From: a virus
Lineage: Duplodnaviria; Heunggongvirae; Uroviricota; Caudoviricetes
Length of the DNA stretch: 9,540 bases
Reading direction: 5' to 3' (one strand)
IMG/VR virus record: IMGVR_UViG_2537562192_000011
Position numbers: made by a program. The first letter of the stretch is position 1. Each line of letters opens with the position of its first letter. This document shows positions 6,001 to 9,000 of this stretch, in pieces.

Positions 6001-9000
6001 GCACCGTCCCGCCACGCCCTTAATCATTACCGTGCCGCCGTACTGGTCGCGGTAAATATCACCGCGCGTAAATTTAGGGTGAGTGTTGCCACTGGCAGTT
6101 AAGCCAGAATATTTAAATTTCATTATTTTTATTCTCCGGTGTGCTGTTCGTTATATCTGTCGTGCAATTGGTCTATTTCTTGTAGTTCCATTATTACAGG
6201 CTCAAGAAGCGTTATTAATGCCGTGACAATTCTTGATTTTTGTTTGTCGCGTTCATTGTCGCCAAGTGTTTCAAGCCATATGCGCAATATTTCCATCATA
6301 TTTTCACTGTGAGAAAGTGCAAGAAATACGCGATCTGTTGTTTCGTGGTAAATATCACGCATATTAATCCCCGTCCGTCGCTTTTCTTAAAATAACCTCT
6401 GTCACGAAATCAGCATAGTTAGCGGCAATATCAAGAATATTTAGCCCTGTATCTCTGTGCTCATCAGTGCAAAGAAAGAAAAAAGCCACCCGCATAATTT
6501 CAGATATTGACGAAAGCGCATCAGCCGCATCATCAGAAACGCCGGAAAATTCTTGTTTCAGGGAATTAAAACGATCATCACGCATAACCCCCCCCATTTT
6601 CACAATCAGCAATCAGGATAGCTTTGGCCTCATTCAGCGCCATATCAGCACTAAGTTGCATAACCGCCAGCGAATGAGGAACGAAAGCCCCTGCATATTC
6701 TGTTTCACTGGTGGCGTGCTTATGCGCCCTGTCAGCAATAACAGAAATATCAATAAGCGCGTGCATCAGCGTAGTGAGCGCGGCGGCTGCTGCGTCCGGT
6801 GTGGTTTTATTGTGCATAGGTTTCTCCCTGGCGAATACGGGCTGCAAATACAGCAACACAACCGGACGGGCAACGGCTACGCGCTTCGCGTTCCGTCCAG
6901 GCGGTTACGTGGATGATTTGAGATTCTCCGGCACTCAGTGCCAGAAAACGCCACACAAAGGCCGTTTGTGTGTGTGCTAGTCGTGGGGTATGATTTACGG
7001 CAACCATAAATTTACCTCTCTATAGTGTTTGTGGTTAGACGCCCTGCATGTGTTCCAGCACTGTGGGGCGTTGTTTTTTGGTGCAAGTCACCTTGAAATC
7101 TAGGTTACTTTTAGGTGACTTGCACTTCAAGTCTTTTTTTATTTTTTTTTCTCCGTATACTGAACACCACCTAACAGTAAGGAGAACAGAGATGCCAACA
7201 GGTACAACCAACAACAAGTCACAACAAAAAACTGCTAGAGTACCTCTAGACGTTTTAAGCGAAATGAATTTGGTAAAAGAAGAAAACGAAACAGACGCAC
7301 AATTTATCGTTACTGCCATGCGCGGCGAAATCAAACGCCGCCAGCGTCGCAAGGCCAAAGAATCAGAATAATCACTATCAGCGCCGTGGTGTGAGGTACT
7401 CCGGCGCATTGCTTTACAGGAACACACAATGACCAACAAAGAATCAACCAATACACCATCGCAAAAAACGAACAGAGAGCACGAAAATATGGCGCTCGAG
7501 CATGAATCAGAAAGATTCGCACCATGCGCTTTTGTCCTTGATGAGTTTCTAAAAAAATATTCACGTTCTGAACGGATGAAAATGGCAGCACAATACGGCC
7601 CCAACAAGCAAGATAATTGCCCACCAGCCTGATCGCGGTTATCATGCCCGGGCTTATGATTGTTGACACATACGGCGCAGCGGGTTAATTGTTCAGAAAG
7701 GTGGCTCCATTTCGGGGCCGCTTTTTTTATGTTCATCATTTGCCCTATATATGTTAAGCGGTCGTTCCGCGCGCTTCTTGTTCGCGTTCTTTCATCCATG
7801 CGATTACGTCTTCCTCATACCATCCGCGACGGCGCAAACCGACACGAAAACCCTGCGGGAATTCTCCGGCGTTGATCATGCTTTGCAGCGTGCTGTCTGC
7901 CTTAATGTGGATAAGTTTTTTTACTTCCTGGCGAAAGATGACTTTTTTGATTGCTTCCATCGTGATTTACCTCATTAATCCGGTGTATTCCGGTGTATTC
8001 CGGTGAGAAATACGGTAAATCATCGGATGCAGGGAAAAACAGTACTCACCGTTTTTAAACGGTATACACCATTTTTTATATTGATGATTTGAAAGGGATT
8101 TATAAAAAAAGCGGCATTTCTGCCGCTTTCAGGATTGTTACCGCCATTTTTTTGGCCTGCCTCCGGTCTTCATGGATGCCGGACGTACAACCTTATCAAT
8201 ACTTACAGCCAGATTTCTGGAAGCCCCACGGGATACCAGGAAATCTACTACCTGTTTTTTTGATGGGGCCGTCGTTCTGTCCTCCGGATCGTAGGTTGAC
8301 CAAAATTCATGCTGAACCATCAGGGCCAGTTGCAGCCCGTCGCAATTGCATCTGAAATTTGTTTGCATCTTAACAGTTTCATTTTTCAAGGCCTCGTCGT
8401 TAAATGTGATGCAATTATACGACGGTTTTAAATGGTTTTCGTAGTTTTTACTGGTTTTCTGTACAGCTAAACGGCTCGGATACCCCTTTTACCACTGGCG
8501 AGGGTTACGCCCGTCGCCGCAGCCTCGACAAATTCGCCCCACCAGCGCATAAGCACGATGCGTTTTTCTATGTAGTTGCTCCGGTTGTATGCCCGTCTGA
8601 CTTCGTTGGTGTCGACGTGGGCAAGTGCGGCCTCTATTACGTCCGGCTCAAAGCCTTCTTCGTTCGCTGCTGTGCTGAATATGGCGCGTAATCCATGAGA
8701 CACCAGCACGCCAGCGAATCCCATGCGTCGTAATGCTGCGTTAGCGGTCTGGCTGTTCATCGGCTGCTGTGGGTCTTTCAGACTCGGGAAAACATAATCG
8801 CGGTGGTGGCTGATTGGTTTCATAGCCTCCAGCACTGCCATAGCCTGGTCACAAAGCGGGATAACGTGGTCGCGGCGCATCTTCATGCGTCCGGCGGGTA
8901 TGGTCCAGCGTTGCGCTTCCATGTCGATTTCTTCCCAGCGTGCCGACGATGCTTCAACGGGACGGGTTACGGTCAGTAACTGCCATTCAATCAGTAATCT

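What the first reader, a model, noticed from the sequence alone, without database searches (positions are those of the whole stretch)
7961..8103. Helically phased direct repeats plus an inverted copy and a palindrome upstream of alpA
Three tandem 10-bp units (TCCGGTGTAT) immediately upstream of the alpA RBS, a fourth ATACACC in inverted orientation about 60 bp away, and the palindrome ACCGTTT-tt-AAACGGT between them resemble the multi-site arrays bound by excisionase/AlpA-type or repressor proteins that form loops. This is probably where helper-derived or self-encoded signals control alpA and, through it, excision.
Basis: partly seen in the sequence, partly recalled or inferred. Interest (0 to 1): 0.5.

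Follow-up and report, generated by a model that had tools for sequence, protein, structure and literature searches.

The report
Structured control leader of satellite alpA
The repeats upstream of alpA are real, but the third copy is a rare recent duplication; the conserved features are a terminator-like hairpin and a small CCGG-loop-CCGG hairpin set inside a stem that covers the ribosome-binding site, so this is most likely a folded mRNA leader that keeps the satellite's master switch AlpA off.

Summary
The window is a ~10-kb E. coli phage-satellite island at tRNA-Pro, with all key genes on the minus strand.

**What holds up**
- The 10-bp tandem array (7979-8005) and the palindrome (8048-8063) are present.

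**What does not**
- The three-unit array occurs in only 7 of 5426 complete E. coli genomes. All other alleles sampled have two units (374 genomes carry this leader).
- The "inverted fourth copy" (8064-8070) is not conserved.

**What is conserved**
- A 43-nt A-tract/hairpin/U-tract (8035-8077) that looks like a terminator and shows compensatory changes.
- A 9-bp stem (8014-8022 with 7963-7971) that pairs half the Shine-Dalgarno and its spacer. One A-U to U-A swap separates the two clades.
- A CCGG-N6-CCGG core inside that stem. It sits 33-36 nt before the alpA start in at least 13 AlpA lineages, down to ~37% protein identity, with a free loop sequence and unalignable flanks.

**Reading**
This is best read as a two-level "off" leader for alpA, acting on transcription termination and on translation. 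A DNA operator for an AlpA-type protein is not excluded. No Rfam family matched and I found no paper describing it. The alpA transcription start site is unknown, and it decides between the RNA and DNA readings.

The parts
7754..7960 (-). alpA (68 aa), an AlpA/excisionase-type winged-helix regulator. It is the gene controlled by the leader.
   Evidence: ORF. Pfam Phage_AlpA and HTH_17 match below their cut-offs. PHROG 'excisionase and transcriptional regulator'. RefSeq annotation.
7970..7973 (-). Shine-Dalgarno GAGG of alpA, 9 nt before the ATG (7958-7960).
   Evidence: Read from sequence. Reads GAGG or AAGG in all alleles.
7976..8005 (-). Three tandem 10-bp units (CACCGGAATA x2, CACCGGATTA). 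One unit is a lineage-restricted slippage duplication.
   Evidence: TRF. Alignments showing a 10-bp gap in every relative. Probe found in 7 of 5426 genomes.
7980..7993 (-). Conserved core CCGG-N6-CCGG (RNA CCGGAAUACACCGG), predicted 4-bp mini-hairpin, 33 nt before the start codon. The third CCGG at 8000-8003 belongs to the extra unit.
   Evidence: Invariant in 23 of 23 distinct alleles. Found at -33 to -36 in at least 13 AlpA lineages with variable loops.
7963..7971 (-). 3' arm of stem 2 (RNA GGUAAAUCA). It covers the last two G of the Shine-Dalgarno and the spacer up to 2 nt before the AUG.
   Evidence: Inverted repeat I5. MFE and partition function give P(unpaired) about 0 for these bases. 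Predicted independently by RNAalifold.
8014..8022 (-). 5' arm of stem 2 (RNA UGAUUUACC), the anti-Shine-Dalgarno arm.
   Evidence: Pair at columns 82/137 is A-U in 12 sequences and U-A in 10; pair 83/136 has one U-G. Duplex energy beats shuffles, P about 0.001.
8035..8077 (-). Hairpin 1: A6 - CrGU - 4x4 internal loop - ACCGUUU - loop - AAACGGU - ACUG - U5. A terminator-like (bidirectional in form) leader hairpin.
   Evidence: Folding z = -4.4 and -4.2 for the whole leader. Delta G -13.6 to -27 kcal/mol. G-U/A-U and G-U/U-A/A-U pair types, and perfect re-pairing in APEC17. The tip was flagged terminator-like.
8048..8063 (.). It is the apical helix of hairpin 1.
   Evidence: 7 pairs, 98.8% of cells paired.
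8064..8070 (+). ATACACC, the 'inverted fourth copy'. Not conserved; it lies in the internal loop and 5' arm of hairpin 1.
   Evidence: The variable columns read GTAT/TCTA/TATA/GAGT/GGGT/GGAT/ACCC.
8078..8106 (-). Candidate weak sigma-70 promoter of alpA: -35 TTTATA (8101-8106), 17-bp spacer, -10 CAATAT (8078-8083). Inferred, not shown.
   Evidence: Best positionally conserved site in both clades. The -10 ends 108 nt before the ATG in two-unit alleles, and a similar distance of 107-109 nt is seen in the L072 family.
8108..8129 (-). Canonical intrinsic terminator of the upstream 76-aa ORF (AAAGCGGCA-GAAA-TGCCGCTTT followed by T7). It insulates alpA from int/ORF transcription.
   Evidence: Perfect 9-bp inverted repeat I9. 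Delta G -13.7 kcal/mol. A terminator hairpin is conserved at this position in both clades, with a different stem sequence in clade 2.

Best explanation
Positions 7961-8103 are the 5' leader of the alpA mRNA (minus strand). It is built to keep the satellite's master activator silent at two levels.

1. Transcription. A strong terminator (8108-8129) ends transcription coming from int and the 76-aa ORF. A weak promoter probably follows (inferred). Its transcript starts with a 43-nt hairpin flanked by an A-tract and a U-tract (8035-8077), which would stop most transcripts early.

2. Translation. Transcripts that get through fold a second structure. A 9-bp stem (8014-8022 with 7963-7971) pairs half of the Shine-Dalgarno and the whole spacer, and encloses a small GC hairpin, CCGG-N6-CCGG. 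That hairpin lies about 34 nt before the start codon, at the 5' edge of the region a 30S subunit covers (my recollection of published 30S footprinting).

The '10-bp direct repeat' is this CCGG hairpin read as DNA. CCGG is its own reverse complement, so a direct repeat and an inverted repeat are the same thing here. The third unit in this window is a recent slippage duplication that lengthens the loop by 10 nt and hardly changes the predicted occlusion.

Shown: the structures are conserved, covary and are thermodynamically unusual. Inferred: the promoter and start site, that hairpin 1 terminates, that stem 2 lowers translation, and that a helper-phage signal overcomes these blocks.
For: Thermodynamics:
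- The leader folds far better than shuffles: z = -4.4 in the window and -4.2 in the Nissle allele, with 0 of 200 shuffles as good.
- RNAalifold on 23 distinct alleles predicts the same three helices without guidance.

Covariation within the family:
- 99.1% of 667 cells pair, against 38-51% when partners are slid by 1-3 columns.
- Stem 2 has an A-U (12 sequences) to U-A (10 sequences) swap and one U-G.
- Hairpin 1 has G-U/A-U at 32/61 and G-U/U-A/A-U at 35/58.
- APEC17 changed both arms and re-pairs perfectly, ACAGTACCCACC with GGTGGGTACTGT, Delta G -27 kcal/mol.
- The G-U pairs are valid only in the alpA-sense RNA.

Occlusion of the ribosome-binding site:
- The Shine-Dalgarno GG and the spacer have P(unpaired) about 0 in both two- and three-unit alleles.

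Conservation across lineages:
- CCGG-N4-6-CCGG sits at -33 to -36 in lineages whose AlpA is 37-58% identical and whose flanks cannot be aligned. Loops seen: AATACA, AATACG, AATAAC, AATGCC, CCCCCC, AATTAA, AATCCC, AATCCA, AATCCT, AATTCA, AATTGA, ACAACA/G, TAAG.
- In several lineages, arms of quite different sequence enclose it and pair with the Shine-Dalgarno region: CCCGUUU/AAACGGG, AUCUCAU/AUGAGAU, CUCCACU/AGUGGAG, AUAUCUGUAUCC/GGAGUAUAGAUAU.
- Duplex energy against shuffles gives P = 0.001 (this family), 0.002 (L257) and 0.003 (L269). Fisher combination over 7 lineages gives 3e-6.

Context:
- A fixed distance to the start codon fits a role in translation initiation.
- Uncontrolled AlpA expression is harmful in EcCICFT073, which gives a reason for a tight off state.
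Against: - The alpA start site is unknown. If it lies downstream of 8022, stem 2 cannot form in RNA.
- The candidate promoter is weak, matching 3 of 6 positions in each hexamer.
- Hairpin 1 has a modest stem without its A-U pairs (-10 kcal/mol) and only five U.
- Two natural alleles (L028, L043) lack half of hairpin 1.
- Covariation within the family rests on very few evolutionary events, essentially the split into two clades.
- The enclosing stem is not significant in several lineages: L241, L260, L261, L263, L265 and L250 give P = 0.12-0.75.
- Complete invariance of the two CCGG tetramers is more than a 4-bp helix needs. It hints at sequence-specific recognition, which could be on DNA.
- Palindromic operators that co-evolve with their protein can also mimic covariation.
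Confidence: 0.5

Rival explanations
1. DNA operator array. The CCGG tetramers, 10 bp apart on one face of the helix, and perhaps the ACCG boxes of hairpin 1 and TTTACCGTATTT, are binding sites on double-stranded DNA. The binder would be AlpA itself (autoregulation) or another small island or helper protein, which activates the promoter or blocks elongation.
For: - Excisionase-type winged-helix proteins (lambda Xis, P2 Cox, TorI) bind phased direct repeats (established knowledge; P2 Cox paper listed).
- AlpA of EcCICFT073 activates its own promoter region.
- The CCGG tetramers are invariant while the spacer is free, as expected for two half-sites one helical turn apart.
- Distant alpA genes carry large upstream arrays of direct repeats: TTACCA(A/G) x6-8, AAACTTCCA x6, ACTTCAA x5 and 3 x 22 bp.
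- ACCG/CGGT occurs 6 times in 143 bp, against about 1 expected (my count).
- ACC(A/G)TTTAAAAC-like boxes recur at the promoter of the upstream ORF.
Against: - The motif is absent elsewhere in the island, including next to int and tRNA-Pro where an att site is expected, and upstream of the replication operon that AlpA should activate.
- It is absent from 50,697 phage records.
- The site lies about 75 nt downstream of the only plausible promoter and abuts the Shine-Dalgarno.
- Its distance to the start codon, rather than to any promoter element, is what is conserved.
- G-U-type substitutions and the G-U/A-U/G-C pair flanking CCGG fit RNA, not a DNA dyad.
- AlpA's predicted recognition helix differs between lineages that share the identical CCGG pair.
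Confidence: 0.25
2. No dedicated regulatory role. Hairpin 1 is just a second (bidirectional) terminator insulating alpA from neighbouring transcription. The sequence next to the ribosome-binding site is conserved for ordinary translation-efficiency reasons, and the tandem repeat is a neutral slippage product.
For: - The third unit is clearly a recent duplication confined to 7 genomes.
- It barely changes the predicted structure.
- Two alleles lost half of hairpin 1.
- Tandem terminators precede alpA in unrelated loci L015 and L016.
- Within-family covariation is shallow.
Against: - CCGG-N6-CCGG is kept at a fixed distance from the start codon across lineages with 37-58% AlpA identity, while everything around it has diverged beyond alignment.
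- The Shine-Dalgarno-pairing arms differ in sequence but persist in at least three lineages at P <= 0.003.
Confidence: 0.15
3. Protein-gated RNA switch. The CCGG hairpin is the docking site of an RNA-binding protein that opens or locks the stem over the Shine-Dalgarno. Candidates are a helper-phage product acting like Mu Com on mom mRNA, or host CsrA using the GGA motifs.
For: - Invariant stem sequence with a free loop, at a fixed position next to an occluded ribosome-binding site.
- GGA occurs in CCGGAAU and again in or near the Shine-Dalgarno in most lineages.
- The helper signal that turns alpA on is still unknown (PMC10803314).
Against: - Published reporters suggest that helper induction acts on alpA transcription.
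- The GGA lies partly in the stem, unlike typical CsrA sites (my knowledge).
- No candidate binding protein was identified here.
Confidence: 0.1

Closest known systems
Ribosome-binding-site-sequestering 5' leaders, in particular the translation-inhibition stem of phage Mu mom mRNA that is opened by the Com protein
   Same: A stem pairs the Shine-Dalgarno and spacer of a gene whose untimely expression is harmful. A small hairpin just 5' of the occluded site could serve as a handle for an activator.
   Different: No Com-like protein is known here and there is no sequence similarity. Regulation by an RNA-binding factor is conjecture. The comparison is from my own knowledge, not from a tool.
Promoter-proximal intrinsic terminators read through on induction (lambda tR'/Q; P. 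aeruginosa PalpB-tB with its AlpA antiterminator)
   Same: A hairpin plus U-tract within the first ~50 nt of the putative transcript, upstream of a gene that must be off until induction (describe tB 54 nt and a second terminator 26 nt after the start site).
   Different: P. aeruginosa AlpA is a larger, Q-like protein with residues numbered to at least 142. It is unrelated in size and architecture to this 68-aa AlpA. No AlpA-binding element (GGGACG) or -10-like pause site was found here. Hairpin 1 is a weaker terminator.
Binding-site arrays of excisionase-type proteins (lambda Xis X1/X1.5/X2, P2 Cox boxes, TorI sites, P4 Vis)
   Same: Short direct repeats at about one helical turn, next to a gene of the AlpA/Xis/Vis family.
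   Different: Those arrays lie in att arms or overlap promoters and have 3-6 conserved units. Here only two tetramers are conserved, they lie in the transcribed leader beside the Shine-Dalgarno, and no copy is found where an att site is expected.
alpA promoter region of E. coli PICIs (EcCICFT073, EcCIMP1)
   Same: The same gene family and genomic position (int - small ORF - alpA). It is known to be autoactivated by AlpA and induced by helper phage.
   Different: Those papers define a functional fragment (for example -449 to +50) but no operator, start site or RNA structure. I could not retrieve the EcCICFT073 leader to see whether it has the CCGG motif.

Membership tests
Excisionase/AlpA-type multi-site DNA-binding array | Three or more similar sites in direct orientation at about 10-11 bp phasing, conserved among homologous elements | tested here: not met
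   Three units occur only in 7 of 5426 genomes. Two units occur in all other alleles. In distant lineages only CCGG...CCGG is kept and the unit sequence is not.
Excisionase/AlpA-type multi-site DNA-binding array | Further copies at the att site or at other promoters controlled by the same protein | tested here: not met
   No other match with up to 1 mismatch in the window or in 24.7 kb around the island. The Icd-operon promoter region carries a different 13-bp inverted repeat.
Excisionase/AlpA-type multi-site DNA-binding array | Specific binding of the protein to the DNA | not testable with these tools
   Needs EMSA or footprinting with purified AlpA.
Looping operator pair (direct array plus distant inverted copy) | The distal inverted copy is conserved together with the proximal array | tested here: not met
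   ATACACC (8064-8070) is replaced by unrelated bases in most alleles, while the array is invariant.
Intrinsic (rho-independent) terminator | G+C-rich stem-loop directly followed by a run of U, conserved as a structure | tested here: inconclusive
   Hairpin 1 has two helices with compensatory changes, Delta G -13.6 to -27 kcal/mol, and a U5 run that also pairs with the A-tract. The scanner flagged only the tip. Two alleles carry a deletion. The neighbouring 8108-8129 hairpin is canonical.
Shine-Dalgarno-sequestering leader hairpin | The Shine-Dalgarno and/or start region is base-paired in the predicted fold, beyond chance | tested here: met
   P(unpaired) is about 0 for the GG of the Shine-Dalgarno and the spacer. 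z = -4.4. Duplex energy against shuffles gives P about 0.001.
Shine-Dalgarno-sequestering leader hairpin | Pairing maintained by compensatory substitutions | tested here: met
   A-U (12 sequences) and U-A (10 sequences) at one pair and U-G at another. Different arm sequences pair in L257 and L269, P = 0.002-0.003. Support is shallow, and non-significant in six other lineages.
Shine-Dalgarno-sequestering leader hairpin | Both arms lie within the transcript, and mutations change translation | not testable with these tools
   The start site is unknown. Only a weak, positionally conserved promoter candidate 108 nt upstream is available.
Any described RNA family (Rfam 15), including C4/CI immunity RNAs of P1/P4 | Covariance-model match | tested here: not met
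   Region search: nothing near any gathering score (best E = 0.07). Whole window: no match at E <= 0.1.
CsrA-regulated leader | Two or more GGA motifs, one overlapping the Shine-Dalgarno, presented in hairpin loops | tested here: inconclusive
   GGA is present in CCGGAAU and near the Shine-Dalgarno in many lineages. It lies half in the stem, and in this window the Shine-Dalgarno is GAGG, without GGA.

The most novel reading that the evidence does not exclude
The CCGG-loop-CCGG hairpin, fixed about 34 nt before the start codon and nested in an anti-Shine-Dalgarno stem, is an undescribed cis-regulatory RNA motif shared by many AlpA genes of Enterobacterales phage satellites. It would be the receptor through which a helper-phage or host RNA-binding factor licenses AlpA translation. 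That would add a post-transcriptional step to satellite induction, which has so far been described only at the level of alpA transcription.
Probability: 0.15. Interest if true: 0.75.

Novelty: new member of a known kind. Interest (0 to 1): 0.5.

Why it matters
AlpA is the master switch of Gram-negative phage satellites (PICIs, PICMIs, P4-like elements). Its expression alone triggers excision and replication. How the helper phage turns it on is stated as an open question in the primary papers (PMC6092414; PMC10803314).

This analysis gives a conserved leader with defined helices and an invariant CCGG pair. That supplies concrete targets for mutagenesis, start-site mapping and protein pull-downs. 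It also suggests that the off state is enforced after transcription initiation as well as at the promoter.

There is a caution for repeat-based readings. Because CCGG is self-complementary, a 'helically phased direct repeat' and an RNA hairpin are the same sequence here. Copy number in a single genome can be a recent accident.

Tried and rejected
- **Rfam.** Searches of the region and of the whole window found no family. This includes no C4/CI-type immunity RNA, despite the Icd-like gene.
- **Copies in helper phages.** blastn of the leader against 50,697 phage records gave one insignificant 32-nt hit. The pattern CCGGAATACNCCGGATT in viral contigs returned only this satellite family plus chance hits inside coding sequence, P-E-Y-x-G codons.
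- **Metagenome pattern scan.** It returned the same two clades plus chance hits and added no new diversity.
- **P. aeruginosa AlpA antiterminator as a model.** Rejected as a homologue because it is a much larger Q-like protein with a GGGACG site between -35 and -10.
- **A promoter inside or just before the repeats.** No conserved sigma-70-like site is there. I also considered a leaderless mRNA with GAGATT-type -10 elements. I set it aside because purine-rich Shine-Dalgarno motifs are consistently present at -14 to -8.
- **A leader peptide.** An ATG at 8024 opens a short ORF in this allele. Its frame changes with repeat number, and the ATG is absent in clade 2 (read from the alignment).
- **Trans-acting complementary RNA.** Only chance-level 9-10-mers match elsewhere in the island.
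- **LexA, PurR, CpxR, TyrR and NarL consensus sites.** Compared by eye from memory; none fits.
- **AlpA homologues in phage records by tblastn.** Only a Ralstonia phage was found.
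Full report
**Context**

The window matches E. coli 2012EL-2448 at 100% identity. It covers most of a ~10-kb island inserted at tRNA-Pro beside yejM.

All backbone genes are on the minus strand:
- a P4-type integrase (8467-9540, cut by the window end);
- a 76-aa ORF of unknown function (8138-8368);
- alpA (7754-7960);
- an Icd-like gene and a DUF4222 gene;
- a D5-type primase;
- SSB;
- a ClpP-protease/major-capsid fusion.

This is the int-alpA-primase layout of Gram-negative phage satellites. The finding lies between the terminator of the 76-aa ORF and the alpA start codon, so everything below is read on the minus strand.

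**Checking the observation**

Tandem Repeats Finder reports 7979-8005, period 10, 2.7 copies, 100% match. In alpA orientation the units are CACCGGAATA, CACCGGAATA and CACCGGATTA, ending 2 nt before the GAGG Shine-Dalgarno. So the sequence description is accurate.

Comparison with relatives changes its meaning.
- A 721-bp query finds 276 E. coli genomes, and a more sensitive search of the 201-bp leader finds 374.
- Aligned relatives at 98.5% to 75% identity all lack exactly one 10-bp unit.
- A 35-nt probe that needs three units hits only 7 of 5426 complete genomes.
- Apart from the window and one viral contig, every distinct leader allele collected from genomes, viral contigs and metagenomes has two units.

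The third unit is therefore a recent slippage duplication in one small lineage.

The 'inverted fourth copy' fails the conservation test. Its four central columns read GTAT, TCTA, TATA, GAGT, GGGT, GGAT or ACCC in different alleles, while the array itself never changes.

**What is conserved within the family**

The leader RNA folds much better than shuffled sequence, with z = -4.4 for the window and -4.2 for the Nissle allele. It forms two structures, and RNAalifold predicts the same ones from 23 distinct alleles.

That is the form of a bidirectional intrinsic terminator.
- Its pairs show G-U/A-U at one position and G-U/U-A/A-U at another.
- One allele (APEC17) changed both arms and re-pairs perfectly, at -27 kcal/mol.
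- Two alleles have lost half of it through recombination between its internal direct repeats, so it is not indispensable.

*Stem 2.* It pairs UGAUUUACC (8014-8022) with GGUAAAUCA (7963-7971). The second arm is the last two G of the Shine-Dalgarno plus the spacer.
- The two clades differ by a compensatory A-U to U-A swap (12 versus 10 sequences).
- One allele has a U-G wobble.
- Overall 99.1% of cells pair, against 38-51% when partners are slid.
- In the partition function these bases are unpaired with probability about 0, in both two- and three-unit alleles. The extra unit only frees the first G of the Shine-Dalgarno.

The repeats sit in the loop of stem 2, where CCGG-AAUACA-CCGG forms a 4-bp mini-hairpin.

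**Deep conservation**

The most informative result came from distant AlpA genes.

In a viral contig whose AlpA is 38% identical (L072), the flanks are unalignable, yet CCGGAATACGCCGG stands 34 nt before the start codon.

I followed this through the protein database and viral contigs. CCGG-N6-CCGG (N4 in one case) turned up at -33 to -36 in at least 13 lineages, from Enterobacter, Salmonella, Dickeya-like and other hosts.
- Loops seen: AATACA, AATACG, AATAAC, AATGCC, CCCCCC, AATTAA, AATCCC, AATCCA, AATCCT, AATTCA, AATTGA, ACAACA/G and TAAG.
- The base pair flanking the tetramers is A-U, G-U or G-C in about nine of fourteen lineages.

So the conserved object is not a 10-bp unit. It is two self-complementary CCGG tetramers at a fixed distance from the start codon. 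Because CCGG is its own reverse complement, a direct repeat and a hairpin cannot be told apart here.

Around it, arms of quite different sequence pair with the Shine-Dalgarno region in several lineages: CCCGUUU/AAACGGG, AUCUCAU/AUGAGAU, CUCCACU/AGUGGAG and AUAUCUGUAUCC/GGAGUAUAGAUAU.

Duplex energy against shuffles gives mixed support:
- significant in this family (P about 0.001), L257 (0.002) and L269 (0.003);
- borderline in three lineages;
- not significant in six lineages;
- Fisher combination over seven lineages gives 3e-6.

Other AlpA lineages lack the CCGG pair altogether: E. albertii-like, Klebsiella, Atlantibacter, and L071/L256.

**How it most likely works**

Published work supplies three facts:
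- AlpA expression alone induces the island and unchecked expression is harmful;
- AlpA activates its own promoter region;
- helper phages induce alpA through an unknown factor.

Against that background the anatomy reads as a leak-proof off state.
1. The canonical terminator at 8108-8129 blocks read-through from a strong, invariant TATAAT promoter upstream of the 76-aa ORF.
2. The only positionally conserved sigma-70-like site near alpA is weak: TTTATA-17-CAATAT here and TTGCAA-17-TGAGAT in clade 2. Its -10 ends 108 nt before the ATG. Candidates lie at 107-109 nt in the L072 family.
3. Its transcript would begin with hairpin 1, and survivors fold stem 2 over the ribosome-binding site.

The fixed -34 position of the GC hairpin coincides with the 5' edge of the mRNA stretch a 30S subunit covers. 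That figure is my recollection of published footprinting, not something tested here.

The promoter, termination at hairpin 1 and the translational effect are all inferences.

**The DNA-operator alternative**

In its favour:
- the CCGG tetramers are invariant while the spacer is free, which is what two half-sites one helical turn apart would look like;
- a plain 4-bp RNA helix would be expected to drift;
- excisionase-type proteins do bind phased direct repeats;
- distant alpA genes carry long upstream arrays of other direct repeats.

Against it:
- the motif is absent everywhere else in the island and where an att site is expected;
- it is absent from phage genomes;
- its distance to the start codon, rather than to a promoter, is what is conserved;
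- the G-U-type changes fit RNA;
- AlpA's presumed recognition helix differs between lineages that share the same CCGG pair.

I put the RNA-leader reading at about 0.5, the DNA operator at 0.25, 'no special function' at 0.15 and a protein-gated RNA switch at 0.1.

**Novelty**

No Rfam family matches. Full-text searches found no description of an alpA leader structure, operator or start site.

Leader terminators and Shine-Dalgarno-sequestering stems are well-known kinds of element, so this is a new member of a known kind. It has added value because it touches an open question in satellite biology.

The three-unit array that drew attention is the least meaningful part of the region.

Noticed in passing
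window 8395-8459 (minus strand): Invariant perfect -10 TATAAT (8414-8419) just downstream of int, serving the 76-aa ORF. It is preceded by two direct 16-nt repeats, GAAAACCAGTAAAAAC and GAAAACCATTTAAAAC, which resemble the ACCGTTTAAAAAC tip of hairpin 1. It is bracketed by the palindrome CGTCGTATAAT...ATTTAACGACG. This looks like an operator-controlled promoter that may share a regulator with the alpA leader.
   Followed up: partly
window 8138-8368 (minus strand): The 76-aa ORF between int and alpA is conserved in both clades. It ends in a basic GGRPKKW tail and matches nothing in Pfam, PHROGs or NCBIfam. It is a candidate small DNA-binding regulator.
   Followed up: partly
window 3830-4081: Cluster of short tandem repeats (CCTTATCTA x2.6, TCTACCTCCCTG x2.2, GGGTAGACAGT x2, GGTAGACAG x2, AATTACAAAA x2) immediately downstream of the primase gene. 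Probably the island's replication-origin iterons.
   Followed up: no
window 7093-7137: Perfect 13-bp inverted repeat GTGCAAGTCACCT / AGGTGACTTGCAC with a 19-nt spacer, in the divergent promoter region between the Icd-like gene (6807-7007, minus) and the YlcI/YnfO-family gene (7192-7371, plus). It is unrelated to the alpA repeats.
   Followed up: no
window 540-2429 (minus strand); island = L001 4252-13959: The island is only ~10 kb, and its sole recognisable morphogenesis gene is a ClpP-like prohead protease fused to a major capsid protein. No portal, terminase or connector gene is annotated. It therefore fits neither a classical PICI nor a full capsid-forming PICI.
   Followed up: no
L028 and L043 (viral contigs), aligned to window 8045-8070: Natural alleles lacking 20 bp of hairpin 1, through recombination between the two AAAAACGGTG copies. 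These are ready-made deletion mutants for testing the hairpin's role.
   Followed up: partly
L071 1716-1922; L072 1746-1900; L254 about 510-650; L013 1803-1868; L015 1859-1955: Other AlpA lineages carry different upstream arrays: AAACTTCCA x6, TTACCA(A/G) x6-8 plus the palindrome CTGGTATACCAG, ACTTCAA x5, and 3 x 22 bp. L015 instead has two tandem terminators directly before alpA. Repeat arrays upstream of alpA are a recurring theme that remains unexplained.
   Followed up: partly
window 7010-7018 and 7965-7973: alpA and the Icd-like gene share the same ribosome-binding context, GAGGTAAAT.
   Followed up: no
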